Assembly (NCBI GenBank): GCA_000004985.1
Contig: GG738912.1
DNA from: Naegleria gruberi
Lineage: Eukaryota
Direction: 5' to 3' (one strand)
DNA: 64,000 nt
Shown: positions 1 to 44,500 of the stretch, in pieces
Numbering within the stretch: the stretch's first letter is position 1
Layout of the letters: each line of letters begins with the position of its first letter
The notes under the pieces: model-generated
Database searches by the model: none
The model's input: the letters and a program-made list of their open reading frames with translations, nothing else
Told to the model about the DNA's origin: nothing
Program-made: the position numbers and the translations under genes

Positions 1-3000
1 ATGGCATCAAATAATTCAGGTGTTTGTAATGGAAGAGGTCATTGTATTGATTACAATCATTGTTCCTGCAATTATGGATACTCAGGAATTGGCTGTGAAC
101 TGTATTCTTGTTACGGAATTTCTGCAAATAGCTCACGAGTTTGTTCGGGAAGAGGAACTTGTAGTTTATCGGATAGTTGTATTTGTCAAAATCACTACAC
201 TTTCCAACAAGACTGTTCAGTTACAACTTGTAATGGAGAGTTCAGTAACTCTTCGAATGTTTGTAGCTCACATGGACAATGTATTTCTTACAATCATTGC
301 AATTGTTCTGAAAATTATTATGGAAATAATTGTGAAATGTTCAAATGCTTTAATATTCCAGCCAATGACTCATCAGTTTGTTTTGGAAAAGGAAATTGTT
401 CGGATTACAATACTTGTAATTGTGAATTGAATTATTATGGACTTGATTGTTCAGAAAAAATTTGTAATGGTACATTGAGTAGTAATTCATCTGTTTGTAG
501 TTCAAGAGGTTCCTGTGTTGCATTTGATTTGTGTAATTGCACTGAAAATTACTTTGGTGATTGGTGCGAATTGACTACCTGTTTTAATACATCATCTGAA
601 GATGCAAGTGTTTGTTCTGGTAAGGGAGTTTGTGTTAATTTTGATACATGTACATGTCAATCAGATGCTTATGGATCTAATTGTTCAGAATATGGTTGTT
701 TCGGAGTGATGAATTCAGAGCCAAATGTTTGTAGCTCAAGAGGAGCTTGTTTGAATACTGACAGATGTAATTGTTCAGATAATTACTTTGGAAATTACTG
801 TCAATTAACAACATGCTTTGGAATTACATCCAACGAAAGCATTGTGTGTAGTGGAATGGGAGATTGTATTGATTTTGATATGTGTCAATGCCAAACTGGT
901 TTTTATGGAGACGTATGTGAATCTCACTCTTGTTTTGGAATACTTTATAATAATGAAACAGTTTGCTCTAGTAACGGAAATTGTACTCAACTGAACCATT
1001 GTGAATGTAACTCTAATTTTACTGGAATTCAATGTGAAACTCTCATTGTAATTCCTGATCCTGTTGTAAACATTACAATGAATGAAACAATCGTAACAAA
1101 CACCATGAACGAAACTTCAACTTTAAACATCACCCTTCCATTGAATGAAACAATAGAAAGTAACGTGACCATTATCTTGAACGAAACCTTGAATGCAACC
1201 TTGAACGAAACTGTGGTTGATAATTCTACCTTTTTAAACGAAACCCTTGAATCAAACAATACCTCTTTGATTGAAAATACTACAAGATTGAACGAAACAG
1301 TGAATGCTACATTAACTACCAATGAAACAATTAATGCTAATGTGACTATTTCGAATCAAACATTGATTGCCAACGAAACAATTCTAGATAATGTGACTAT
1401 TACTAATAACATAACAACAGTGATTAGCGAGAACGTAACATTGATTGACAATACTACAGGATTGAACGAAACAGTGAATGCTACATTAACTACCAATGAA
1501 ACAATTATTGATAATGTGACTATTTCAAATGAAACATTGATTGTCAATAAGACAATTATAGATAATGTGACTATTACTGACAATATAACAATCATAACAA
1601 ATGAAACTAATATTGAAAATAGTCAAACAGTTGTAAACGAAACAAGTGTCAGCACTCCTAATATTACTCTGACTAATGATACAATAGTGAATAACGAAAC
1701 TACAATTGCAAACGAGACATATCTTAACGAAACTATGATTGATGTAATTCCAATAATTGAAAACGACACTATTCTTTGTGAAAAGAAGTTGAATTGTTCC
1801 AATCATGGTGATTGCCTTTATACTGGAAAATGTAGATGTTACACTGATGATTCGAATGGTTATTGGTCAGGAGAAAGTTGTGATACTTGCTTATTTGGAT
1901 TTTATGGAGATTCGTGTAGATTCAGACCTCCAGTTGCAATTATTGCGGCTACTGAAGAAGTTTATAGCTCTTGTGATGACATTTTGATTGATGGAAGGTC
2001 AAGTTATTCATTTGATGGAACTGATTTGAATTTCTATTGGAAATTGATTGATTCAGATACTTTACAAGAAGTTTCTTCAAATCATTCAAATGTTGCATTA
2101 TTAAGATTGAAAGGAAATATTCCACATGGTAATTATTTCATATCTCTCCAAGTAGAAAGTACCACTTTGAATCAAAATAGCTCCCTAGTTTATTCCAACA
2201 TCTTTAAAAAGTCAAAAGTTCCAATTCCTGTTGTAAATTTGATCGATAACACCATTGAAAAGTTTACAAATCAATTCCCTCTAACAGCCAAGAAGACACT
2301 TACAGAATCTGCATGTGCTTATGAAAAATCCATCATAGAATGGTCTCAAATAAGTGGCCCACCAATCAATTATCAAGTTGACCAATATTTCAATCTTTAC
2401 ATTCCATCTATGCTCAATTACGGCAAGAACTCATTCACATTCCAAGTAACTGCCTATTATCCATCTTCTCCTAAATTTAACGCTACTCAAACACTTATTA
2501 TCAAGACCAAATCCACAGATTTAAGTCTTGATCTTATACAAACCACAGCCACAGAAACATCTACAAATTTGGTTGTAAAATTTGTTGATCTAGAATTGAA
2601 TGGAGATGAGGAAACTTGGAAATGGAGTTGTTTGGATAATAACAATACGAAATTGATGCTTTTCCTTAGTGATATTTCTCAAAGAAAAGTTGATGATATA
2701 ACTTTTGATTCTTCTATTTTCGGAAGTGAAATACCAAACTCTATTGAATTAACTCTACAAGTCTCCAAATCCTATAACAGAAGTATTGAAAAATCAACAA
2801 TTATCTACTTTAATGCAATTCCTCCAATTGTCTCGATTGTTTATACTGAACCAAGTACAAGCTTTGTTCTTCCAGGTCAACAACTTTTCTTACAAACATT
2901 TATTGCCAACAATCAACAATCAAATTTGACAGTTTTCCTTAATGGACAAGTTATCGGTGTGTACGATAAGACAGGTCTGATAATAGACACTTCCAATTTG

Positions 3001-10343: not shown

Positions 10344-12098
10344 ATGAAGAGACTCAAATCGGAACTGTCGGTTGCTGAAATTACTACTATTGATTATCAC
10401 TTATCCAAAAAGCTTAAATCGGAAAATACAACAAGTGTAGAACAAGAAGAAGAGGAACAAGAATTAGTAAAACTAATATTATCCGATAATTTATTGGAAA
10501 TTCCGCAAGGCTTGAAAGATCAACTCGGAAGAAACAAGGTTAAAGTACTTCATATTAATTTCCATAAAATAGATACAATCCCAAAACTTGCTAATATTAC
10601 ATATATTACTACTGTTACAACTAATCAATTAAATAATTTAATAATTGCCGTAACTACCCAAAAACAATGTTATGTATTTGATTCAGAATGTAAATCATGG
10701 AAACTTAAATTTGAATTACCTTCATTTAATTCTGTGCAGATTGATAGTCAATTTGAGAATGTTTATATTGGAAGAAATAATACCATTAAGAAATATAAAA
10801 TATTAGATCATGTAACAGATTATTCAAAAGAATCTCCTATTTGGGAAAAAAAGATTAATGCAAAGTATAAAATGAATTGTGCTAAATTAACGAATGAAAT
10901 GTATCTCATACAATTTAATTCAATATATGTAATGGATTTATTGAATGGATCAAAAAAAAGAGAAATTGATTTAAATCAATCAAATTATAATGTTATTGAT
11001 GTATTATATGTGGATGAAAAGGAGGGACAGCTTTATCTCTTATTTGAAGAAATAGCTGATAGTGATGACGATAGTGACGATGTGGATGAACAATATCTTT
11101 TAATCTTGAAGGATGAAAGATCTGGAATTGAAATTAAAATTGACACATTTTATGAAAAAGTTGTATCAATAATTCCGTATTATGAAAATTATGTCATTTG
11201 CTTGATAAATACGGGGGAAGCTTATTTATATGAAAAGAAAACAACTAATTTGTTACATACTTTTACTGTTTCTGACAATTTACATGCTGCTCATTTTGAT
11301 AATATTTTCAAAAGGTTTTACTTTTCTGCTTCACGTGCTGATAGTCACATTTCTGTTGTACAACCTATTATTGCAACCAGGGTTGAAAATGTGCCACTCA
11401 CAAGGGAAATATGTCTTTCTCTTGCAAAATTGAATGTTGAATTTCCCTCATTAATAATAAGAGAATATGGCGAGAATTTGATGCCAGAATGTTTGCAATT
11501 TTTAAACGATATTGACTTTAGAAATAAGAAGTTGTGGTTTCTTGATAATGAAATTGCTAAATACTTTGAATTTCAATTTGACTTTGAAAATGAAATTCCA
11601 GATGGACATGATGATGTTGTAATCGGAGGAAGTAGTGAAGAATTGGAGAGTGACAAATATCAAGCTTGCCTCCATGTAAGAAAATCAGAAGTTTCAAATA
11701 ATTATGATTTTCCAGTTTATTTACTTTACAAAGAATCACTCAATGACGATTTTCTGAAAACAAAGAGATTATCGTTTTCAGAATTCATTTCAAAATTGAA
11801 ATTATCTGAGTGCATTGTCATTAAGCATTCAACATATCTAATTAACTTTGAAATGATTTATGAAGAATTGACTCAAAAATCAATCATTCATCCGAAAACC
11901 AAACTTATTGATAATAATATCCTTGTGGAGAAGTATAAGAAAATGATGTGTGGAGTTGACCAAGAGGATTACTTTGGATTAGCACGAAAATTTAACAACT
12001 CAACAATCAAATTTGATAATACTCTATTTCTAAAGATGGATTTGGTTGCCTTGGCCATAGATTGTTGTTCTGCAATTTCATTTGTAAAAACCGAATAA
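10344..12098 (+). CDS. Hypothetical protein (584 aa) with an acidic D/E/S tract
   Basis: It is a continuous ORF with an ATG in A-rich context (aaaaaaATG). It contains 'EEIADSDDDSDDVDEQ'. I recognise no domain. Confidence 0.5.
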   Translation: MKRLKSELSVAEITTIDYHLSKKLKSENTTSVEQEEEEQELVKLILSDNLLEIPQGLKDQLGRNKVKVLHINFHKIDTIPKLANITYITTVTTNQLNNLIIAVTTQKQCYVFDSECKSWKLKFELPSFNSVQIDSQFENVYIGRNNTIKKYKILDHVTDYSKESPIWEKKINAKYKMNCAKLTNEMYLIQFNSIYVMDLLNGSKKREIDLNQSNYNVIDVLYVDEKEGQLYLLFEEIADSDDDSDDVDEQYLLILKDERSGIEIKIDTFYEKVVSIIPYYENYVICLINTGEAYLYEKKTTNLLHTFTVSDNLHAAHFDNIFKRFYFSASRADSHISVVQPIIATRVENVPLTREICLSLAKLNVEFPSLIIREYGENLMPECLQFLNDIDFRNKKLWFLDNEIAKYFEFQFDFENEIPDGHDDVVIGGSSEELESDKYQACLHVRKSEVSNNYDFPVYLLYKESLNDDFLKTKRLSFSEFISKLKLSECIVIKHSTYLINFEMIYEELTQKSIIHPKTKLIDNNILVEKYKKMMCGVDQEDYFGLARKFNNSTIKFDNTLFLKMDLVALAIDCCSAISFVKTE

Positions 12099-12142
12099 AA
12101 ATTGTTCAGGAAGCAATTATCATGGATTTAAGAGGTACAATG

Positions 12143-12148
12143 AAAAAA
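12143..12148 (-). terminator. Pol III oligo(T) terminator of the 5S gene
   Basis: TTTTTT lies immediately 3' of the 5S 3' end on the minus strand (plus strand aaaaaa). Confidence 0.7.
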
Positions 12149-12266
12149 GACTACAGCACCACAGGTTCCCAAGTTGTCTCCAACCTCAGTACTGATGTGG
12201 CTCGACGATGCTTAACTTCTCAAATCGGACGGGATGAGGTGCATTCATCGTGATATGGCCGTAGCC
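12149..12266 (-). rRNA. 5S: 5S ribosomal RNA gene (118 nt)
   Basis: The minus strand reads GGCTACGGCCATATCACGATGAATGCACCTCATCCCGTCCGATTTGAGAAGTTAAGCATCGTCGAGCCACATCAGTACTGAGGTTGGAGACAACTTGGGAACCTGTGGTGCTGTAGTC. The 5' GGCUACGGCCAUA pairs with the 3' GCUGUAGUC end (helix I). CCCGUCCGAU..GAAGUUAAGC is the conserved box A/loop B region. The gene is followed by a T6 run. Confidence 0.9.
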
Positions 12267-12464
12267 ATTCATTTTAACAAAATTTCAAATATTAATATTA
12301 AATTTGTAAATGTCTTGCAAGGTTTGCTGGTGGCATGTTATTGGGTGTGAGACTTGTTGAATTTCTTGGTCAACTTTTAAAGTGAAACAACAAGATGAAT
12401 TGTAATGTTAGATAACATCCTATAGATGTATTTATTATTGTCGTGATGAAGATTGATCAAGTAG

Positions 12465-12490
12465 ATGATGAATAATTAATGTTAGGAAGC
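12465..12490. repeat. 26-nt conserved motif, copy 1 (atgatgaataattaatgttaggaagc)
   Basis: It is 24/26 identical to 32302-32327 (atgatgaacaattaatgttaggaaca). Both copies lie in intergenic DNA just 3' of a + strand gene. The motif starts with a C-box-like AUGAUGA. Confidence 0.6.
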
Positions 12491-14287
12491 ATGTAAAAAT
12501 TCAACTTGACCATCGTTGCAAATTATTCGAAAAACATTGTCAAAATACATTTTCTGATGTGATACAATAATAAATCTTGTACCTCCTCTTCAAATTGAAC
12601 AAGTTTTCCAAATGATGTTTTTCACTTTAAAATACTTTCATCTTCCAACTCTTCATCAACACTTGATGGAAAGTTTTGAAACTTTCTGAGGTGATACTAG
12701 TAATGATTTAGAACATGTAAATAATATTCTTCTTGTTGTGAATAATGTTCTTCATGATGAAAATATTAAAATTAATAAATTGATGAAAATATTCTTGCTG
12801 AAAAACAATTGCATCTATTTGATTGTTATATTCATGTTGAATACTAATAGATGATGTGACTTTTAATTTTCCACTTTAACAAAATTTTCCATCAATTTAA
12901 TCATTACCTTTTAAAATTTGTATTTCCTTGTAAAATCCAATAAAATCAATTCATATGCTCTCTATATAATCCAATCATGTTGTGTTGAAAATGGTTTTTC
13001 CATTCATGAAGAATTGCCTTTGCGAATCATCAATGATGTAAATTATTAAAATGTGATGAAATTTTTTCTCAATATTTTTCAACTAATTTTTTCATCAAAT
13101 TTCACTCATCACATTTCTTGCAATCAAAAACTCGTCAATAATTTTTTCATCACAGAAAGCAAAAGAATGAATTCACCAACAAAAACATATGTCCTGATAG
13201 AAATTATTTATTATTTCCATGGATATTCAATATGAAGATGAATAATTGAATGGAAATGTTCTATGCCATCACTCAATGCAATTTATCATGTTTGGATAAT
13301 TATTCTTCATCACCATCATGAGAATTTAATATTAGAAGAAAAGGTAAAAATTCAACATGCTCTCCTCTTGTTTAATTCGCATCAAACTCTGTTCACATTC
13401 ATATAAACAAGATGAGACTTTCCACAATGATACTATCGATGATTAGCAACATTTTGATATCCGGTGATGAATTTAAATTATGTAACATGATGAAGAAAAT
13501 AATGAAATTATTTTGATGGAAATCTTGTTGCAAGAATAACCTCGGATACGCTTGAATATCGTAAAAGATGTTATCATTCCATCAAGTAATAATTACAATT
13601 TTCAAACTTTAAAAATTGCCTTCAATCTCCTCAATTCACTTTCCAATACACTCATCCATCAAGTCCAGCCTCATGCCTATCCTCATCTCCACATCCACAC
13701 AAAATTATTTTCCATAACTCCATCAATTGCTTCCACAATTCATCTCGTCCTATTTTTTAAACAATTTACAATAATAAGTTGACCATAAAAATAATTACAA
13801 TAAAACCTTTCAATCATTTTGCAAGAATAAAGTCTTTGTAATATTGAAGGGGAATAGTAGATTTGGTAGTGTTGAATTTGGAACAAATTTAATAATTTCA
13901 CACCTATTACAATAACAATGTTTAAAAGCTCAAGCGGTACTATTTCTTCCAACGCACTTCCAATTCAAAGAGTCGGCTTCTGCGACAACGCACAACTTTT
14001 GCAAGATTTGTTATTGAGGCGTTGTTTGCGCTCTAAGTAAATTTCATCAAAAATTGTAAACAAATATGAAAATGTATTAAATACTCAATAATTACTATAC
14101 AGCTTGTAAAATAAATTTGATATTCAAAATCTGGACAATATTTACCACATTTTCATGTATTTTTATACAGTATCTTTCTATGAAATATTGCTACTTTATG
14201 GAACAGTTCTCTTCGGAATTTTAAATTCTTCCAAATACATAAACAGCCGCTTACGCTTACAACCAATATCAAAAAAAACAACTCAAA

Positions 14288-16071
14288 ATGTTTACCATCA
14301 TTGCAGCAGCATCTGAGAGTGTTACTGTTGATCAGCCACTTGAGGAATCATCCTCTCTTCTCTCTCAATTATTGCTTGCCCTTTTGGCCATCATTGCAAC
14401 CTTAATCATCATAGCCACACTCAAGGTTCTCCAAATGCGACAAAAGATAAAGCACATTCCAGGTACTTGGCAATATTTCTACTCTCTCTTTCGTATTCCC
14501 TTCATTGCTCCCTATCTGTATTTCGGTCCAACTGACAAGATGCTCGAATTGATGGACAAGATTGGTGACAGTGAAACCAAAACAACTTCCCTCTCCATGA
14601 TAAATGAGAATAGTGTCTGGATTTCTGATAAAGACATGATAAAGGAATTAACCATCACCAAAGCAAGTGATTTTGAAAAACCAAAAGATTTCTTTGATGC
14701 CATTAACATTTTTGGTGAAAATTTGGCATCTGTTCAGAGTGAGAATTGGAAGAGACATTTCAAAGTTTGTAATCCTGGATTTAGTCCAAAGAATTTGGAA
14801 TATGTTTGTAAAGTTGCAGCTCAAAGTTCAGATTTACTTTTCAATGAATGGAAGAAGGTGATTGAAAAGGATGGAAAAGTTGTGTTACAAGTTACGGATT
14901 ATTCAGATTTGACTTTGGATGTGCTTGGAAAGGCAGGATTTGGTAAGTTTTACAATGAATTTTACAAGAATTTTACAAAAATTGTGAAATTTTAGGATTT
15001 GATTTTGGTATTTTCACTTCAGACGAAACTGGTAAGAAATTTAGAGCTGCTTTGGAATATACCATCACTTATGGTATTGCAGTGAGAGGTTTCATATTGC
15101 CAGCATCCAAATTCTTATATAACATTGTTGCCAATTATACTGGATTGACAGATTATTGTGATTTCATGGCCAAGATTTTGAATAATGTAATCGAAACTAG
15201 AAGAAAGGAAATTAAAGAAAGAGAACAAGATCCAAATGCTAATGATAAACGTGGAGATGTTCCTTGTGATATTTTGAGTTTGTTGGTGGAAGCAAACATG
15301 ACTGAGAATGCATTATCAGATGGAGAATTGATGAGTAATTCTTTTATTTTGGCGCTGGCCGGCCATGAGACGACGTCAACTTGTAAGTTTTGCAATTTTT
15401 AACCTTACTGCAATATTGTAAAATTATTGAACTGACATAGTATTACAATGGGTTTCATATGAAATTTCAAAGAGACCTGAAATTTTGAAAAAGTTACAAC
15501 AAGAAGTTGATGAGAAGTTGCAAGGAAGAGATCCAACCTATGACGATTTCCCAAAACTTGACTATGTTAATGGAGTAATTATGGAAATTCTTCGTGTCCA
15601 TCCACCTGTGTCCACAGTTATTAAGGTTGTATCCAAGAAATCTACCAAGATTGGCAAGTTTGACATTCCAAAGGGAACTATTGTTCGTGCCTTTATGGAA
15701 CATACTCATTACAGAGAAGATTATTGGAAAGATCCATACACTTTCAATCCTGACAGATTTGGCGACTTTGAAAGTAGAGAAAAGATTCAACACACCTTCA
15801 TGTGGCTTCCATTCTCAAGTGGTAATCGTAAATGTGTAAGTAGCATCAAATTTCATCATTTTTCAATAGTTTCCAATACTATTTTTTATTGAAATAGATT
15901 GGATATCGTTTCAGTTTAATGGAAGGTTGTATAATCTTGGCCAAATTGGTTCAACATTATGACTTTTCATTATTAAATGATGAAAAGGTTGATCCTGTCA
16001 CTACCAGAACTTTATCTGTCAATAGACCTTCTCCAAATATGAAAGTTGCCATCACTCCTCGTGTTAAATAA
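14288..16071 (+). CDS. Cytochrome P450 monooxygenase, 4 exons
   Basis: Exons are 14288-14942, 14996-15382, ~15441-15835 and 15898-16071. Introns are 53, ~58 and 62 nt, all GTAAGT..AG. The spliced protein joins '...LGKAGFG|FDFGIF...', '...AGHETTST|LLQWVSYEISKRPEILKK...' and '...FSSGNRKC|IGYRFSLMEG...'. The last junction completes the haem-binding motif FxxGxRxCxG. The K-helix 'EILRVHPP' and the 'PDRF' (PERF) motif are present. The N-terminal TM anchor is 'LLALLAIIATLIIIATL'. An alternative intron-1 acceptor at 15022 is also in frame. Confidence 0.85.
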
Positions 16072-16081
16072 AGTTCATAAT

Positions 16082-19000
16082 TTATTGATTTGTTGGATAA
16101 TCCCAATAATTATTATACTTCTTTTTGTTTGGAGATTCCACTTGTTGAGCAAAGAATCTTGCATCTGGAGAAAATTCTTTGTTATCATAATAAACATAAT
16201 TGGTCACTGGAGGTGAACTAAAACCTCTTGGTCTCATGAATTGAATTGGAGTTGAGGATTCGAGTGGAACAGTCTTTCTCTTTCTCTTATTCACACAGTA
16301 CATGATACAGCAGAATCCAATTGTGGCAGCAATGGCCAAACAGAGAATTATATAAATGGCAACTCCCAAAATTAAATAATTGGAAAGGGAAAAGATATTT
16401 TTGGAAACTGTTTCAACAATGAAAACGTTGGTGAATCGAGAGCATTTACAAGTGGCAATATCTTGATTAATGCTCAATATTTTACAATTTGAGGAAAGAT
16501 CACCAGTTTGATCTGTAAAATCAACGCAGGAATATGAATTGTTTGAGGTTACAATTTCCAAATCAAGGAAGGTTCCAGCATAAGAAGACTGGTCTTGTTA
16601 ATTGGGAAGGTATAAATGACTCCACTTTCATCAATTGGGAAATCATTATCAAGTACATTAAACGAAACAATATTCGAAATGACATAGCTCTCTTTAAACT
16701 TAGAAGCATATTGGTCCATAGAAGCCAACTTGGTATTCAATCCATAAACATCCTGCATTGTAATCATAATATACGAGAATGGCTTCTTTACCAATGCAAC
16801 CTTACTGGCCTTGGCCAAGAAATTTCCATCCAATTCTACAATCGTTCCATAAGTAGGATCAACAATTTTAGGTTCATAATCATAGACGGTATGTCGATTA
16901 GTATTGACAGAGTAGAAATCACCCTTTCTGTTTTTAGCTGTTCCACCCAAGGTTAATGATCTACTTGTCAAGAAATTTGATGTTTTGGAAGCTGAAATTA
17001 ATTTGAGAGAGGAAGTTGATTGATTAGTTGAAGCTTTCTTCTTTGAGAGATAGGAATAAATTGATTTGATACAATTTTCAAATAATTGAACAATGGCATT
17101 GTCGACTTTCAATTCACTTGACAGGGCAACTCTAAGAACTGAATTTAAATTATTCAAAACTTGTGAAATTACTTCAGATGTCAAGGAATCAATATTAAGA
17201 AGAATCGAATCAAGTCCAAATCCAACCAATGATATGTAATCATCTGTAACTCCACTAATATTTGCCAACTGGACCATCATATTCAAAACAGAAACAGTTG
17301 TCTTTTGAACTAGGTCAAATTCTACAATGGAAATATCACAATTGTGTCCGATATATCCTTCAGCACATTCGCAATGGTTCGCAACTTCAACACCATTCTT
17401 GCAAGCTAACGATCTCTTAGCTGTTGCACTCTGTGAGTTGATATATTCCTTAACTAGAATGGCATCAGTTCTGGAGGTATAAGCAGATTGTGAAATACTC
17501 TGACTAATGTCACCAGTCTCTGAGAGTTTGACACTTGTATCTGTCCATACTTGAACTACACCTTCAATATCCTGAATAGTTGAATAAACAGGTGTAGTAA
17601 TTGAAATGTCATAATAGGAGATGACAGATGCAGATGTCTTTGTGTCCACAATTTCAATGTAACATTTCACAATAGTTCCAGAAGAAGGTGATGGAATCTT
17701 TGAAGAATAAATTTCTCCAAGGTTGTACAATGGTATCTTGGTTCCAGATCTATCATCCACAAATCCATAATTAAAGTCAATTGTCTTTTCAGAATTTTGG
17801 CAATTTACGCACGAGAATATAAAGTTAGTATCGAGAGCAATGCCTTCAGTTGGAGTAATTTCACACAAGCAAGGTTTTGGAGTGGTTGCAACTTGGAAAG
17901 TATAACTAGCACTTGATGTAGCTCCAGTAGAAGAATCAAAGCTTGAAATTTCAATATTATTCGTAGATCCTTCTGGCAATAATGAAGTATCAATAATCAC
18001 AGTACTTGTTGAACTAGTTTCTGATACTGTGTTAACTAATTGTCCATTAATATACCAAGTATTATTCAGTGTGGATGATTGAGATGAAACTAGAGTCTGC
18101 ATTGAGAAGGTATTACCAGATAAAATGTAACTAGTTGACGGTTCGATGGAAAGAACATTCAAAACAGGTGGAATATTAACAAAGTATGCTCTGATTGATT
18201 TGGAAATTGATCTTCCGTCTGATTTTACAATAGTGAGTGTGAAATCTACATAGTTTGGAATCTTTCCATTGAAATAAGAGGTGGAAATGATGACTAGAGT
18301 GGATTTTGAATTGGAAACAGTAAGTAGATAATCCTTTAAAAAGGTATTTGTAGAGTTCCAATTCCAAGTTTCAGTTGACTGAGTGTTCACTGTAGATTCA
18401 GGATCAGAATACATTACTTCAATAGTGGAAGACTCACTTGATGATTGGAGAATGTGCAGTTCAAGTAAAAGATCTGGAGATTTCGTATTCAATGTCACAA
18501 GGGAAGAAACACGAGCACTTGGATTGGAATTATAAAAAGCAGAAACTTTGAAAATATAAGTATTCATTCCGAATGTTTTCAGAGTTGAAATTAGCAGATT
18601 ATTGGCAGAATCTACTGAATATTCAATTGAAGGACCGCTTGTTTGTACCCATTCAACACTAATTGCTTCGCTTGATTGACAAGATGCTTCGGTTACTATC
18701 TTTTTGATAGTGAGCGGGAATTCATTAGAGTATTTTTCGTATAATGATTTGGAAACAACCAATGAAGGAAGTGGCTTTGAGGATTTGGTAAATACATTAC
18801 TATATGTAACACTACTACTAATTCCCAAATAGGAACTCTTTACAAATAATGTAATAAAGTAAGAACCAGGTGGTAAATTTGGACTAAGAGAAATAATTGC
18901 TTGATTTGGAACTATTTCACTAACTGATAGCGTACCGTTAGAATTATACAGAGCCCAAGTGTAAATTAAGGTCTTACCATCGGCTGAGAAACTTGAAGAA

Positions 19001-22000
19001 CCATCCACAGCAATCTCATCACATGAACTGTAAATGTCTACATTTCTCATTTTGATTATTGCTTGTGGTGGAGCAATAGATACCGGAGGAAGAATTACAA
19101 ATGAAAGATAATTGGTAGGTTGAGTGAAAATTTGATTGAAAGCTAGCGTGTTAAGTCTGATTGAGGTCATGCTCAAGATAATATTGTAATCCATTGATCC
19201 AAATGTAATTCTGAATAAAGAAGTTGACTTGTCAATAAATTGACACTTGACTAAGGAAGAGCTTCCGTAAATTCCATTGGTTAGGTCATTGGCATGGAGC
19301 AATTTACTGCATACGACATCAACTCCACTAATTGGTGGTGAATATAAATAAAATTCAACACCTCTAAAATCAGATGTCATTCTGACAGGACCTACAATTC
19401 GAGTTAAACAAGATTCTCCATAGTAACCACTTTGACATGTACTACATGAAGAACCTGTCCAATATCCTTCATTAGAATTTGAATAACATGTGCAAAAACC
19501 TTTTACATTACATTCTCCATGATTAGAACAAGTTTCAACTTTAGTACATTCTGTTATAGTTATTGAGTTGTTTGAAGGAGCATTTGGTGGAATGGAAGTT
19601 GTATTAGTTTTTACAGTTGAATTGGTAGTTGTTGTATTATTTGTTACAGTTGAATTAGTAATTGCTGTAGTATTTGAACTAGTTGTGGCATTCATAACAA
19701 CAGTCTCATTGTCTGCTACGGTAGTATTTTCTGTAACGTTTGTTGAATTTTCAGTTGGAACGGTCGTGGTTTCATTCATTGCATTACTAGAAGCATTGAA
19801 ACTATCAGTTGAATTAGTAGAAGTGACATCAGAACTGGTAATATTTTCTGAAATGGTCGTGTTGTTATCAATCAAAGTGGTGTTGTTAGAAATAGTTTCG
19901 TTCACTTGATCAGTGTTATTAGAGGAAACAGTTTCATTGGAGCTAGTAACTGTCTCATTAGAAATTGTTTGGTTAGTTTCACTCGCAGTACTATTTTCCA
20001 CAACAGTTTCATTTGAAATTTCAACACTTGTAGAATTATTGTCAAGTACTGTACTGTTAGTAATGTCTGTGGAATTTTCCACATTGGTTTGGTTAGCAAT
20101 TGTGGAGTTGTCAACAAGAGTAATATTTCCATCATTGAGAGTTGAATTATTTAAAATTTCTAATGTAGAATTATTCTCAATTGAAGTGGAATTATCAGTA
20201 ATGTTTGTTTCATTCGACTCACCAATAGATTCATTCAAAGCTGTAGAATTATTGGAAACTATGATGGTACTATTATCATCCGTTGTTGTATTGCTAATCA
20301 AACTGTTATTAGCATCAACTGTGGAATTATCCACAAATGTAGAATTATCAACCAAGGTTTCGTTTGCTTGAGTGATTGTTTCATTGGAGGAGCTAAAAGA
20401 GTCATTTGAAGCAGTTGTGCTATTGGTAACCACAACAGTGCTATTATCAGTTGTGGTACTATTAGACAAAGTACCATTATTAACATCACGATTATCCACA
20501 AATGTAGAATTATCAATAGAAATAGTTGTGTTATCAGTCAAGCTAATGTTAGAAGTTGTGGAATTGTCAACTTGAATACTTTCATTACTGATAACTTGAG
20601 TACGATTTTCACAGAATTGACCAAAATATCCTTCTGTGCAATTACAAATATCAGTAGAGACACAAGATCCATTTCCATTACAAACACTTGGATCAGTATT
20701 GAGTATTCCATTACATTTAAATTCAGAACAATCTGCTCCATAGAATCCATTTTCGCAACTGCAAGTATTATAATCCGTACAATTGCCTTTTCCTGAACAA
20801 ACGGAACTGTTGGACAAAATATTGTAACAAGTTGAAATTTCACAATTAGATCCATAATAATTGGAAGCACAATTACATGAATTAAATGAGATACATTGTC
20901 CATGGCCTGAACAAGTATCTGAAGAATTGTATAATACACCATTACAGGTTGTAACTGAGCAATCAGATCCGAGATAATTGGTGTGGCAATTACATTGGTC
21001 ATGAGATGTACACTCTCCATTTCCAGAGCAGGTCAAAGTATCATTAGATAACACATTGTTACAACTGGTGATTTCACAATTAGATCCAAAATAATTAGAT
21101 ATGCAATTACATGAATTAAATGAGCTACATTGTCCATGACCTGAACAAGAAACGGAGGAGTTGGATAATACACCATTACAGGTAGTAATTGAGCAATCAG
21201 ATCCAAGATAATTGGTGTGGCAATCACATTGGTCATGAGAAGTACACACTCCATTTCCAGTACAAGTCAATGTGTTGTTGGACAACATATTGTAACAAGT
21301 TGTAATTTCACAATTAGATCCATAATAATTAAGGGAACATTGGCAAGTGTCATAACCAATACATTGTCCATGAGAGTTACATACCAATGCATTATTTGAT
21401 TGGATATTGTTACAAGTTGTGAGTTCACAATTGGTTCCAAAATAATTGCTAATACAATTACAACTATTGTAAGAAGAACAAGTTCCCTTTCCATTATTAC
21501 AAACTTGTGCAGAATTTGAAAGAATATTGTTGCAACTGGTGATTTCACAATTAGATCCCAGATAATTAGCTTGGCATTGGCATTGATTAAGACTAACACA
21601 AGATCCCTTTCCTGAACAAACATTTGAAGAATTACTTGATATTCCATTACAAGTTGTAATAGAGCAACTAGATCCAGAATAACCAGAATTACAAGAACAT
21701 GAATCCGAGCTAGTGCAATTTCCGTGTCCAGAACAAACATATGAGGTATTTGTGGAAGCAATTGAAAAGCAAGAGTATGAAACAGGCGTCACAACTGAAC
21801 TACCATCACTATTGCCACTATTTCCACTATTTCCACTATTAGAAACTACAATGGAAGCTGCAGTTGGATCATAGCTTTGGCAATCGGTTCCATAATAACC
21901 AGAACTGCAAGTACAAATTCCTGCACTGCAAGAACCATGACCTGAACAAACCAATGATGATGATGTTGGAATGGCATTACATCCATCCATATCACAATTC

Positions 22001-25000
22001 ATGCCAACCTTGCCTTGTGGACAGGTTGGGAATAACAATCTCAACCTTCCAGTTTTAGATTCAGTATAGTAAATACCAAGATTTGAATACCAAACATTCA
22101 CTGGTTTGGATACATAATCACCGGAACCATCGAAACCATACAGAGGAGGACTAGTTGATGAGAATAAGGTAAATGTACCAGCATAGGTGGACAAGATATT
22201 GGAACTGACTTTTCTGATAGTTTGAGTTCCTTGATCAGCAATATAAATTTCATTTCTTGATTCATCGACTGAAACTCCGGTTGGATAGTAAAGTTTAGCT
22301 GTGCTACCATCAGCTTGTACGTTGGCTCCACATGAAGCACCAGTAGAACAATAACTTGTGGAACCAGCAACAATTGACATGGTTCCCGAGGAAAGCTTTC
22401 TAATCTTGTGATTCTATAAAGAAATGTTAATGAATAAATATTATTTGAATAACTTACTCCTGTATCGGCTACATAAATGGTATTACCATCTGAGCTCACA
22501 TATAAACCAGTTGGCTTTGACAATTTAGTCAAGAGAGGATTAGAATTATCACATGTTGCAGAGCCAGCAGTTGTACATTCAGTTCCTTCACCAATCACTG
22601 TAGTTAAAACATTATTATATATCATTCTAACTCTGTGATTCATTGTGTCGCAAAAGTAAATCTTGGCTCCAACAATGGCAATACTGGTTGGGAAATTAAG
22701 GGTTGCCGAGAGAGGAGCTCCATTATCACCACATGCAACACCAGAAGCTGGAGTACATGCTGTTGAAGTTCCTGCAACTGTGATTACCTTATTATTGGAA
22801 TCTATTTTTCTAATTCTGTGATATTCTGATTCAGAATAGTATATTTCACCTGTGGTTGATGATTTGGCGAGTCCAAAAGGAAATTGAATACCACTAATTT
22901 GATAAGTATCTTGAATTTTTAAGGAAGCTTGGTAGGCATAAGTGTTATCTGCGGTTTGACTTGAAGCAGTTGGTAATAAAAAGTTTCCTAAAATAGTATT
23001 GATTCTTCCTGTAGTAGCATCAAATTTAGCAATTCTGGCATAGTTCATGCTTGGTGTTGAGGCAAACAATTCACTATCGGCAGTACTTCCACCACTTGCA
23101 CCAATATAAATATCTCCATTAGAATCAATGAATAAACCAGCAGGTCTCATCAATTTAGTTCTCAAAGCAATTGTATTCTCTCCATTGTAAAATGAGTAGT
23201 CATTGTAATAGTGTCCAGAAGCTGAGGCTATATTTCCATTAGAATCGAGATATCTGATTGCAGAGAAAGTGAATCCACTGTAAGTACCTGAGTAGGAACT
23301 AGAGACAGCATCATCGAAATAGAGAGTTCCACTTGGTGAGAAGGAAATTCTCTTGGCAGATATCGGTGAGAGTGCACTTGACCATTCTCCCTTATTGGCA
23401 TAGGTAGCTCCATTACCAACCACTGTAGAAATGTAGCCAGTCGAAGAAACCTTTCTAACTCTTTCAGAATCACAGAAATAGAGCTCGTTTGTTGATGGAT
23501 GAATGTCCATATCATTCACTGTTAAAATTGTGGCACTTGTTGCAAGACCACCATCACCACATGGCTGTGTTGAGCAGGAAGTTCTCAATGTACCAACATA
23601 TTTGGTAATTGTGTTTCTATTGGCTGAAATCTTTCTAATATAATACAAACTAGGGTCAGCAACGAAGATTTCATTATTAGCATTGACAGCAACTACCTGA
23701 GGACCTCCAAAGGTTGCTGCCAATGGACTCCCTCCTTCACCACAGGTTCCACTATTACAACCAGTTGCCTGTATACCAGCAATGGTTGTAATAATTCCTG
23801 TTGCCTTACTGACCTGTCTAACAATACGATCTCCAAAAACAGCAATGATCAAATCATTATTAGGTGTGAGGGCTATACCTTTAGGTGTATTTAAGGAAGT
23901 TGCTGTGGCTGCAACGTTATTAGCATAGGAAGCACCACCTCCAGCATAGATGGACATGACACCTGTGGCATAATCAATCTTTTTGATATAATTGTCGTCC
24001 ACAAAGTAAATGTCATTGTTGGATTGATCAATGGCCATGTAAGTTTTTGATTTGTAAACTTGAGAATACTTGGCCAGATTACCAGCGCCAAAACCGACAA
24101 GAGCAGCGCTAGGATCAGAATAACCACCTGCTATTTTCTTTACAATAGTAGTATCTGGAGCAACTTGAAAGATTTCACTATCTGCCATGACGTACATGGT
24201 TCCATTCTTTGTAAAGGCAACTTTTGGATTGATTTTGAATTGAGTATTAATCATCTTATTGCCAAAACCATTAGAAGATTCATGAGTACCGGCTATACAT
24301 GTAACAACACCATCTTTTAACATTCTCAAACGATTACTCCTATGGAAATTAGAATAGAGAAATTATTAAGAAATAAAATAAGGAATAAAAAAACATACAT
24401 TTCAGTATAGTAAATAGTTGTACCATATGAAAAGACAGATTTGACTGCTTTTGCTTCATCGTTCGAAACATAAATCTTAATATTCGTTCCAATTTGGCCA
24501 TCGCCATTAGGTCCAATAGAAAAGTAATAAGCTGATGGCCAAACATTATTACCATTACCAATGACGGTTGAAATTATTCCAGTTACAAAGTCTACTTTTC
24601 TAATTCTATAAACTGTAGAATCTGAAAATATTAAATCTCCATTAGAAAGAACAGTCAAGCCCTGAGGATAACTGAGCAAGGCACTTAATGCGCTACCTCC
24701 ATCACCACATGCAGCCATTGGGGTAGTTGCGCATGAGCTAAGAGGTGTACCAGCGTAACGTTGAATCATGTTGGTTTGAGTATTCCACCTTCTAATCACA
24801 GAGTTGGTCTTGTCTGAAATGTAGACATACAGACCATCAGAAGAAACAGCAATACCACCTGGAGTTTGAAACCTAACTGAAGCATCTGAGATGAAACCTC
24901 CATCACCTTGATAACCTTGGTTGCTAGCATCACCATATTTTGCTATTAAAAGGCCAGTAGCTCTGTCAATCTTTCTAATCTGGTTGTTGGAGGATTTACC

Positions 25001-41500: not shown

Positions 41501-44500
41501 TACAAAATGTTAAACTTACCATAAGAACAAACTGAATTAACACACAATGAATTTCTATTTCCAAGAGGTGAACATTCATCATTGGATGTACATGATTGAG
41601 CAACACAAATACCACCATCAGTTGTCTTTGCATTTGCTGGTCTTTGACATTTACCTTTTCCTGGCATGGAACATTCCAAATCCTTGGTACATTCTAAAAA
41701 GGCATTAAATTATAAACATTCTACAAGTTAAAACTTACCATGACGACACATTCCATTCACACAATGAGGGAAATAACCTTCTCCATAAGATTTACAACTC
41801 TCATCACTTGTACATGTTTGTGTAATACATTTAAATTTAGAAGCATCACACCTTTGAGTACCTGGTCTTCCACTACAATGAAAATCAGTAGAACATTCTC
41901 CATTACATCTATTATTATCACACATTGGACTCCAATTGAATCCCAAACAACCATAATCACCAAGACATACTTTTTCTTTACAAGAATAATTTGATAAATC
42001 ACAAGATGGTCTAGTTGGGGAGGTACAATTGGTGTCAGCAATACATTCCTTACCACAATTCATCAGGCCAGTTAGAGGACTTGTCATACATGCACCGAAT
42101 TTTGAAGGACAATCATCATTGGATTCACAAATATCATTCAAGTTATAAGTTGCACATTCATATCCATTCTTGGCCATGCAAACATTAAATGTTCCATAAC
42201 AATCATTATCAACAAGACAAGCTGTTGCACATTTTCCAGATTTACAATACTTATTGGCTCCATCTTGAGGACAATCACTATCTTGACTACATGTTCTTTC
42301 AACACAGACATTATTTTCACAAATTGGTTTGCCAGGAGTATTAGAACAATGAGAATCAGTTTCACATTCAATGGCACAAACTTTAGAATTTCCATACATG
42401 GTAGAATAGGGAGTTACTCTACAGCCCTTTGTGGAAGCAGGACAATCTTTACCATATTTACACATAGTAGGAACACACATATTCAATGTAGTATTACAAG
42501 TTGGGGTATCCAAATATGAACTACAATCAGATGAGGAAGCACAAGGTGGATACATGGCCTTACATTGAGAATTAATACAATACTTATTGACACCATTTTG
42601 TGGACAATCCTTATCAGCTGAGCATGATTTAGCAACACAAGTATTTGAAGAACAAGTTGGTTTTCCATTAACATTCTTACAATTGGCATCTTCTGTACAT
42701 TCCACCTTTGAACAATAACTTGTTCCATTCAATGGCAAGAATGAACAATATTTGTAAGAAGTAGAGCTGCATTCAGATGAAACGATGCATGGCTTTGGTA
42801 CACATGCTCCATTTTTGTTACAATATGGTTTACCAGGTACTGATTCACATTCAGAATCAACACTACATTCAACATTATCACAAGTTGATCTAACACAATA
42901 TGGATAAACAGGATTTGTACAGTTAGAAGAGGTAGTACATGGTGTCTTTTCACATCTACTTCCCTTAGCTCCGTAATCAACACAAATTGGGAATCTAGCA
43001 GAAGTACAATCAGCATTTGAAGAACATGTCTTTTTACAAGTTCTATAACTTGTTGAGGAACTATCAGTGTCACATTTTCCAAATCTATATTCATTAGTAC
43101 AATCACTATCTGAAGCACATTCAAAGGCACAAACACCACTAGATCCACAGAAATACATACCATTGGTAGTACAAGTAGATACTGCATATGTATTGGCAGT
43201 AGAACAAGATACTGGTGAACAATAAGAAACTCCAGAAACTGATTGACAAAGCTTGTTGGCAGAGAAACCAGAACATGAACCACAAGGTCTCTTACAAGTT
43301 AATGAATTGGTACGAACCATTCCAGGTTTACAGGCACAATTATCTTTAGATTCACACCAACCAGCATCAACAGATCCACAAACTTCAGGATTATCTGATT
43401 TCATTGATCCACAAGTGGTAATATTACAACTGGATCCAGTGAAAGAGTTTGTACATGTACAAGTATCAGGTTTAGAACAAGTACCATGGCCACTACAAAC
43501 AAGTGAATTTGAAGCAGGGATACCAAAACAAGAAATTGCTTGACATTGACTTCCAGAATAACCACTTTGACATTTGCATGTATCCTTAGCGATACATTTA
43601 CCATGTCCACCACAAACAGATGTATCTAAATTGGAAGATCCAAAACAAGTTGTTTGTTCACAATTACTTCCATTGAAACCAGAATTACAGGTACAGTTAT
43701 CAAAACCAGAACAAACACCATTTCCACTACAAACTGTAGAATTGGTATTTGGAATTCCATTACAAGTTGTAAATTGACATTGATTTCCATTATGATTAGG
43801 AGTACATGAACATTTATCTAATGAATCACATGTACCATGTCCACTACAAACACTTGAATCATTTGCTACCTTATCAAAACACTTGAGTTGACAATCAGGA
43901 CAAATAACACCCTCACAATCAGCACCATTCAAACCAGTTCTACATTTACAAATACCACTTCCGACTTTTTTGGACTTGTCATAAATGAATGTACATTGAC
44001 CTCTTCCATTACAAACATCCAAAGCAGAAGAATACTTTCCATTACATTGAATTTCACATTTGTGATCAAAATCAATTCCAGGAATAGTACTAATGCAACT
44101 CTTTGGAGTGAGAATTTTGATCGAATTTGAGGATGAATGGACATACATGATAGATCCATCATCTAACAATACCATATCAGAGGCACCAGCCATCAAAGAT
44201 TTAACAGAACTATCAGTACTAAGATAACCCGTATCTTTAACAATTGTATAGAATGTAGTGAATGTCGGATCTGTAACAAATACTTGTTCTCTATCAGAAA
44301 CATAAACGATTGAACCTGCTGAAGCAAAAGTGAATGCTGGATAAATTTCACCAGCCCAAACGAGATCCAAAGTGTAAATTGAAATAACATTCTTCTTGAA
44401 AACATAGACATAGTCACCAGCAACAGCCACATTCAAAACAAACCTTGCACCAACATTACTCAAATCTCCAAGATAGTTACAACTTTTACCTTGATTGACA

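What the first reader, a model, noticed from the sequence alone, without database searches (positions are those of the whole stretch)
12149..12266. Solitary 5S rRNA gene hidden under a spurious + strand ORF
The track shows only a 63-aa ORF (12062-12253) here. The minus strand is an unmistakable 118-nt 5S rRNA with a T6 terminator. The gene is single-copy in this window (not in a tandem array) and sits 50 nt downstream of a protein-coding gene. This indicates dispersed 5S genes that are not linked to other rRNA genes in this window.
Basis: partly seen in the sequence, partly recalled or inferred. Interest (0 to 1): 0.5.

Follow-up and report, generated by a model that had tools for sequence, protein, structure and literature searches.

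The report
Dispersed 5S rRNA gene, Naegleria gruberi
This is a real, intact 5S ribosomal RNA gene of the amoeba Naegleria gruberi, one of about 280 copies scattered across its chromosomes; this exact copy was already listed in a 2012 paper, so the finding is correct but ordinary.

Summary
Rfam RF00001 (5S rRNA) matches window 12148..12266 on the minus strand over its full length, at 105.4 bits against a gathering score of 38. It is the only Rfam match in the 64 kb, and a T6 run follows directly (12143-12148). The fold is the 5S three-way junction, and nine environmental relatives support it with compensatory changes in 18 of 39 pairs. The overlapping 63-aa plus-strand ORF has a TTG start and no Pfam match, so it is spurious. 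The neighbouring 584-aa ORF is 100% identical to a Naegleria gruberi predicted protein. It converges on the 5S gene and ends 50 nt from the gene's 3' end. In Naegleria, 18S/5.8S/28S lie only on an extrachromosomal plasmid, so chromosomal 5S genes cannot be linked to them. A 2012 paper (PMC3369914, Table S1) lists 279 putative N. gruberi 5S genes. One entry is "scaffold_68 12147..12263", which is almost certainly this copy. My analysis of that table gives 117 scaffolds, a median neighbour spacing of about 34 kb and no fixed period. The most likely mechanism is an RNA polymerase III type-1 gene with an internal box A and an AT-rich upstream element. Already known; low interest.

The parts
12148..12266 (-). 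5S rRNA gene (119 nt by Rfam; 118 nt if the first T of the T-run is not counted)
   Evidence: RF00001 at 105.4 bits against a gathering score of 38, full length. The MFE fold is a three-way junction, -41.5 kcal/mol, z = -2.6. On 10 sequences, 97.7% of cells pair and 18 of 39 pairs show compensatory changes.
12143..12148 (-). T6 run, the presumed RNA polymerase III terminator, overlapping the last base of the gene
   Evidence: The plus strand has AAAAAA at 12143-12148. All 12 full-length environmental relatives also have a run of at least 4 T within about 15 nt of the 3' end; in the gene-adjacent runs the count includes the gene's last T.
12203..12217 (-). Box A of the internal control region (+50..+64, AGTTAAGCATCGTCG)
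   Evidence: Exact match to the consensus NSYYAANC(N7) quoted in PMC3369914, at the canonical position. The same bases are also constrained by RNA structure, so promoter function is inferred.
12170..12187 (-). Box C-like segment (+80..+97, GAGGTTGGAGACAACTTG)
   Evidence: Two mismatches to the consensus NNGRTGGGNGWCCNYNNG, at the canonical position.
12287..12302 (-). AT-only upstream element TTTAATATTAATATTT at -36..-21, a candidate TATA-like TFIIIB/TBP site
   Evidence: Read from the sequence and partly palindromic (I10). PMC3369914 reports a TATA box upstream of N. gruberi 5S genes. In a genome of 34% GC this is weak evidence on its own.
10344..12098 (+). Convergent neighbouring protein gene (584 aa, no known domain)
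   Evidence: 100% identical over its full length to 'predicted protein [Naegleria gruberi]'. No Pfam family.
12062..12253 (+). Spurious 63-aa ORF antisense to the 5S gene
   Evidence: TTG start. It overlaps the end of the 584-aa ORF in another frame and 106 nt of the 5S gene. No Pfam match.

Best explanation
This is a functional nuclear 5S rRNA gene of Naegleria gruberi, one member of a family of about 280 chromosomal copies that are dispersed rather than tandem. RNA polymerase III most likely transcribes it as a single unit. The start would be at or next to G12266. The promoter would be the internal control region (box A at +50..64 and a box C-like segment at +80..97), helped by an AT-rich TATA-like element about 30 nt upstream. 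Transcription would end at the T6 run at 12148-12143. The 118-119 nt RNA folds into the five-helix three-way junction and joins the large ribosomal subunit. The gene cannot be linked to the other rRNA genes, because in Naegleria these lie only on a multicopy extrachromosomal plasmid. Shown: the identity of the RNA, its structure, its solitary position, the T-run and the organism. Inferred: Pol III transcription, promoter use and expression of this particular copy.
For: RF00001 scores 105.4 bits against a gathering score of 38 over its full length, and it is the only such hit in 64 kb even at E<=1. The MFE structure is the 5S fold. Covariation on the window plus 9 environmental 5S genes gives 97.7% paired cells and compensatory changes in 18 of 39 pairs. 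No shuffle of 500 reached that value, and structures slid by 1-3 columns pair in only 33-41% of cells. The T6 run abuts the 3' end, box A is exact at +50..64, box C has 2 mismatches at +80..97, and the stretch from -50 to -1 is 88% A+T. An environmental contig (L005) carries a copy identical at 118 of 119 positions in unrelated flanks, which shows the sequence is held constant independently of its locus. The neighbouring gene is 100% identical to an N. gruberi protein. PMC3369914 Table S1 lists 279 N. gruberi 5S genes, including scaffold_68 12147..12263. That copy falls in the modal similarity class of 0.75, which holds about 160 of the 279 by my count. The genome-wide spacing has a median of 33.9 kb and no fixed period. 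The plasmid location of 18S/5.8S/28S comes from PMC12482156.
Against: I had no expression data for this copy, and with about 280 copies some may be silent. The intermediate element of the classical ICR does not match its loose consensus at +67..72. PMC3369914 found no TFIIIA in N. gruberi by BLAST, so how the promoter is recognised may differ from the Xenopus/yeast model. U24 in loop B differs from the A seen in 8 of the 9 related sequences.
Confidence: 0.92

Rival explanations
1. This is an intact-looking but transcriptionally silent copy, a young pseudogene or reserve copy within the large dispersed family.
For: The family has about 280 copies, including truncated and divergent ones with similarity of 0.50-0.72 in Table S1. 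This copy has one loop-B difference (U24) from its nearest relative L005. No expression data were available.
Against: The copy is full length, and all helices pair with no disruptive change. The T6 terminator and AT-rich upstream region are intact. It falls in the modal similarity class of the published list.
Confidence: 0.06
2. This is a 5S-derived retroposed element (a SINE3-like element or retro-pseudogene) rather than a classical gene.
For: The family is dispersed and high in copy number, with varied flanks, which is what mobilisation could produce.
Against: Similarity to other copies stops about 2 nt upstream and about 12 nt downstream of the gene. There is no 3' tail region, no poly(A), and no flanking direct repeats around the gene. 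The sequence is a complete 5S with its own terminator.
Confidence: 0.01
3. This is a dicistronic tRNA-5S unit of the Yarrowia lipolytica type, transcribed from an upstream tRNA promoter. That would fit the reported lack of TFIIIA.
For: PMC3369914 found no TFIIIA in N. gruberi. Yarrowia shows that dispersed 5S genes can use this route (PMC2566860).
Against: ARAGORN finds no tRNA gene anywhere in the 64 kb. No tRNA family is found by Rfam either.
Confidence: 0.01

Closest known systems
Naegleria gruberi 5S rRNA gene family as catalogued in PMC3369914 (PLoS One 2012, Table S1, 279 copies)
   Same: Same organism. The entry R33713, scaffold_68 12147..12263, coincides with window 12148..12266 to within 1-3 nt. 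The paper reports the same ICR, TATA and T-run features.
   Different: Nothing about the gene itself differs. The paper's Table 1 scores N. gruberi as 'tandem arrangement: Y', whereas its own coordinates give a median spacing of 33.9 kb and no period. The arrangement is therefore dispersed with loose clusters.
[quoted passage not shown]
   Same: 5S genes are scattered singly through the genome, unlinked to the 18S-28S unit, and each has its own Pol III signals.
   Different: In Yarrowia, 48 of 108 copies are fused 3' of tRNA genes. This copy has no tRNA within 64 kb.
Tetrahymena thermophila: extrachromosomal rDNA plus chromosomal 5S genes (174 putative copies, PMC1557398)
   Same: The large rRNA genes sit on an amplified extrachromosomal molecule, while the 5S genes stay on the chromosomes in many tandem and dispersed copies.
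   Different: A different lineage, and a linear palindromic rDNA rather than a circular plasmid (my own knowledge). Dictyostelium is the contrasting case, with 5S carried on its extrachromosomal rDNA (my own knowledge).
Classical type-1 Pol III 5S genes in tandem arrays (Xenopus, human)
   Same: An internal box A at +50..64, a box C-like segment at +80..97 and a T-run terminator.
   Different: The gene is not in a tandem array. The intermediate element is not recognisable. The upstream region is AT-rich and TATA-like. TFIIIA is reportedly not detectable in N. gruberi.

Membership tests
5S rRNA (Rfam RF00001) | Covariance-model score at or above the curated gathering score, over the full length | tested here: met
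   105.4 bits against 38, model positions 1-120 of 120, E 4.4e-22.
5S rRNA (Rfam RF00001) | Five-helix three-way junction of about 120 nt, maintained by compensatory change | tested here: met
   The MFE fold gives the junction. On 10 sequences, 97.7% of cells pair and 18 of 39 pairs change on both sides. No shuffle of 500 reached this, and slid controls pair in 33-41% of cells.
Eukaryotic Pol III type-1 gene | T-run terminator directly after the gene | tested here: met
   T6 at 12148..12143 on the minus strand. The related environmental copies have runs of at least 4 T within about 15 nt of the 3' end.
Eukaryotic Pol III type-1 gene | Internal control region: box A, intermediate element and box C at +50..+97 | tested here: inconclusive
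   Box A is exact at +50..64. Box C has 2 mismatches at +80..97. The intermediate-element consensus SNNRRN does not match at +67..72. These consensus patterns are loose, and they overlap bases that the RNA structure constrains.
Eukaryotic Pol III type-1 gene | Transcription by Pol III and incorporation of the RNA into the 60S subunit | not testable with these tools
   No expression or ChIP data were available.
Dispersed (unlinked) 5S organisation | No second 5S copy and no 18S/5.8S/28S gene nearby | tested here: met
   There is one 5S hit and no other rRNA hit in 64 kb, at the gathering score and at E<=1. The probe hits once.
Dispersed (unlinked) 5S organisation | Genome-wide, copies are scattered with irregular spacing rather than in head-to-tail arrays | tested here: met
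   Published coordinates give 279 copies on 117 scaffolds and 162 neighbour distances. The median is 33.9 kb, only 1 distance is under 1 kb, and there is no constant period. This rests on another group's BLAST list, not on my own scan of the genome.
Dicistronic tRNA-5S gene (Yarrowia type) | A tRNA gene immediately 5' of the 5S gene on the same strand | tested here: not met
   ARAGORN finds 0 tRNA genes in the window.
5S-derived SINE or retro-pseudogene | A non-5S 3' module or poly(A) tail, and target-site duplications | tested here: not met
   No flanking direct repeat brackets the gene. The downstream sequence is unique and leads into the neighbouring gene's stop codon. Similarity to L005 ends within about 12 nt of the gene.

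The most novel reading that the evidence does not exclude
About 280 N. gruberi 5S genes stay nearly identical although they are scattered singly over more than 100 scaffolds. A copy identical at 118 of 119 positions also sits in unrelated flanks in an environmental Naegleria-like contig. This could mean active homogenisation without tandem arrays (ectopic gene conversion) or a recent burst of copy dispersal. It could be combined with a TFIIIA-independent, upstream-TATA-driven mode of 5S transcription. Neither has been described for Heterolobosea.
Probability: 0.12. Interest if true: 0.4.

Novelty: already known. Interest (0 to 1): 0.1.

Why it matters
The main value is for annotation. The only feature shown for this locus was a spurious 63-aa ORF, although the locus holds a real rRNA gene, so RNA genes should be masked before ORFs are called in this genome. 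The result also corrects a small point in the literature. The published N. gruberi 5S coordinates describe a dispersed family, not the tandem arrangement stated in that paper's summary table. Beyond that, it fits what is already known: Naegleria keeps 18S/5.8S/28S on a plasmid and 5S on the chromosomes.

Tried and rejected
1. I tried to fetch the N. gruberi contigs that encode the 584-aa neighbour and its 72% paralogue, to look for a syntenic second 5S copy. Three look-ups found nothing on record.

2. An exact 37-nt 5S probe found nothing in the metagenome collection. A 21-nt probe then gave 14 contigs.

3. I tested whether L005, which carries the near-identical 5S, is syntenic with the window. 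Only the 5S and about 12 nt downstream align.

4. I tested whether the 2-kb ORF-free stretch upstream holds a decayed duplicate of the 584-aa gene. tblastn found nothing.

5. I looked for repeats or target-site duplications around the gene and found only short AT-rich chance pairs.

6. The bacterial-type promoter and terminator scan is not informative for a eukaryotic Pol III gene.

7. The N. gruberi genome paper (Cell 2010) is not held in the library. A search for 'Naegleria' with '5S ribosomal' and 'dispersed' found no paper.

8. I considered and rejected the tRNA-5S dicistron, the SINE or retro-pseudogene, and organellar or bacterial origin. The hit is flanked by nuclear N. gruberi genes and ends in a Pol III T-run.

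Full report
**Observation.** On the minus strand, window 12266..12148 reads GGCTACGGCCATATCACGATGAATGCACC...GGTGCTGTAGTCT, followed by TTTTTC. Rfam 15 cmscan of the whole window gives one match at gathering threshold. It is RF00001 5S_rRNA at 12148..12266 (-), scoring 105.4 bits against a gathering score of 38, with E 4.4e-22 over model positions 1-120 of 120. A permissive scan at E<=1 adds only two chance-level hits elsewhere, with no second 5S, no 5S fragment and no other rRNA. A 68-nt probe with up to 3 mismatches hits only once. ARAGORN finds no tRNA gene in the 64 kb. On the plus strand, 12140-12150 is ATGAAAAAAGA, so the minus strand has T6 at 12148..12143.

**Structure.** The minimum-free-energy fold of the 119 nt is the 5S three-way junction, with helix I closing and two arms (-41.5 kcal/mol, z = -2.6). 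A 21-nt probe taken from the gene recovered 14 metagenome contigs, and each holds exactly one RF00001 match. I aligned the window copy with nine of them and counted pairs on the window's own fold. Of all cells, 97.7% form standard pairs, and 18 of 39 pairs carry changes on both sides. No shuffle of 500 reached this, and structures slid by 1-3 columns pair in only 33-41% of cells. Because the structure was derived from one of the aligned sequences, the paired-cell figure is somewhat favoured. The count of compensatory pairs is not affected in the same way. The RNA identity is not in doubt.

**Signals around the gene.**
- The box A consensus quoted in PMC3369914 (NSYYAANC followed by 7 N) matches exactly at +50..+64.
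- The box C consensus matches at +80..+97 with two mismatches.
- The loose intermediate-element consensus does not match at +67..72.
- The 50 nt upstream are 88% A+T, with an all-AT block TTTAATATTAATATTT at -36..-21.
- All 12 full-length environmental relatives carry a run of at least 4 T within about 15 nt of the 3' end.

These features fit a type-1 RNA polymerase III gene with an upstream TATA-like element. Their function here is inferred, not shown.

**Surroundings.**
- The 584-aa ORF at 10344..12098 (+) is 100% identical over its full length to 'predicted protein [Naegleria gruberi]', which identifies the organism. It has no Pfam domain.
- That ORF and the 5S gene converge. The stop codon ends at 12098, the 5S 3' end is at 12148, and only 44 nt separate the stop codon from the end of the T-run.
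- The 63-aa ORF at 12062..12253 (+) starts with TTG and overlaps the end of the 584-aa ORF in another frame. It runs antisense through 106 nt of the 5S gene and has no Pfam match. It is spurious.
- Upstream of the 5S gene lies a 2-kb stretch (12267-14287) with 28% GC and no open frame longer than 80 codons.

**Genome-wide context from the literature.** PMC3369914 (PLoS One 2012) searched the JGI N. gruberi assembly by BLASTn and lists 279 putative 5S genes in its Table S1. One row is R33713, scaffold_68, 12147..12263. This agrees with the window position to within 1-3 nt. The window is therefore very probably the first 64 kb of scaffold_68, which is an inference. The other two copies on that scaffold are at 92,738 and 145,649, outside the window.

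I transcribed all 279 rows and computed their spacing:
- The copies lie on 117 scaffolds.
- The 162 same-scaffold neighbour distances have a median of 33.9 kb and quartiles of 8.8 and 77 kb.
- Only one distance is under 1 kb and 22 are under 3 kb.
- The short distances show no common period.

This is a dispersed family with some loose clusters, not a tandem array, although the paper's Table 1 scores N. gruberi as 'tandem: Y'. This copy has the modal similarity value of 0.75, shared by about 160 of the 279 rows by my manual count. That suggests, but does not prove, that it has the majority sequence. PMC12482156 states that Naegleria rRNA genes are encoded exclusively on a circular extrachromosomal plasmid carrying single 18S, 5.8S and 28S genes. 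Chromosomal 5S genes therefore cannot be linked to them.

**Relatives.**
- Contig L005 (Ga0247722_10036048, 36% GC) carries a 5S gene identical at 118 of 119 positions. Only the gene plus about 2 nt upstream and about 12 nt downstream aligns to the window, so the same RNA sequence sits in an unrelated locus.
- The other contigs are 69-78% identical in the gene (82-93 of 119 positions).
- Some of these contigs are partly similar to one another beyond the 5S gene.
- No contig holds more than one copy, including L008 (6.8 kb) and L011 (4.6 kb). This agrees with solitary genes in those organisms too. I did not identify the organisms.

**Rivals.**
- A silent copy cannot be excluded without expression data, but nothing in the sequence points to decay.
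- A Yarrowia-type tRNA-5S dicistron (PMC2566860) is excluded because no tRNA is present.
- A 5S-derived SINE or retro-pseudogene is excluded. There is no tail module, no poly(A) and no target-site duplication.

**Comparison and verdict.** The gene is a member of RF00001 and of the already catalogued N. gruberi 5S family. Its arrangement resembles the dispersed 5S genes of Yarrowia (PMC2566860). It also resembles the Tetrahymena arrangement, with extrachromosomal rDNA and chromosomal 5S genes (PMC1557398). Neurospora, S. pombe and Acanthamoeba are further examples from my own knowledge. Its practical value is as an annotation fix, and as a small correction to the 'tandem' label in the 2012 paper.

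Noticed in passing
window 12267-14287: A 2-kb stretch directly upstream of the 5S gene has 28% GC, the lowest in the window, and no open frame longer than 80 codons in any of the six frames. That is long for a gene-dense genome. It is not a decayed copy of the neighbouring 584-aa gene (tblastn negative). The only RNA hint is a sub-threshold SNORD38-like match at 13090-13158 (-), at 24 bits against a gathering score of 44, E 0.25, which is probably chance.
   Followed up: partly
PMC3369914 Table 1 versus Table S1 (N. gruberi scaffolds): The paper's summary table scores N. gruberi 5S genes as tandemly arranged. Its own coordinates give a median neighbour spacing of 33.9 kb on 117 scaffolds with no repeating period. 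The published label looks wrong.
   Followed up: yes
L005:539-657 (contig Ga0247722_10036048): This environmental contig has a 5S gene identical to the window's at 118 of 119 positions, in otherwise unrelated flanks. About 12 nt just past the T-run are also similar (TTTTTCATTGTAC versus TTTATATTGTAG). With two sequences this cannot be told from chance.
   Followed up: partly
window 12243 (position 24 of the RNA, loop B): The window copy has U24, whereas 8 of the 9 related 5S sequences, including the near-identical L005, have A. It could be a copy-specific variant useful as an expression tag.
   Followed up: no
P0002 (N. gruberi protein, 587 aa, on a different 310-kb contig): The 584-aa neighbour gene has a 72% identical full-length paralogue elsewhere in N. 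gruberi and no other homologue in 5.8 billion proteins. It is a lineage-restricted duplicated gene of unknown function. I could not fetch that locus to see whether a 5S gene follows it as well.
   Followed up: partly
window 14288-15892 (+): Three consecutive ORFs (14288-14995, 15052-15402, 15485-15892) look like exons of one gene split by short introns. By eye the last carries a cytochrome-P450-like haem-binding motif (FSSGNRKC). I did not run it against Pfam.
   Followed up: no
window 16549-22380 (-), and L001:428-775: A 1943-aa ORF is rich in cysteine-spaced EGF-like repeats and Asn/Ser/Thr-rich tracts. tblastx shows similar repeats at several other window sites (about 100-1000, 20600-21750, 43400-43900) and on environmental contig L001, next to its 5S gene.
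   Followed up: no
whole window: No tRNA gene occurs in the 64 kb, and there is no other Rfam family at gathering score. In this stretch the 5S gene is not clustered with other Pol III genes.
   Followed up: yes
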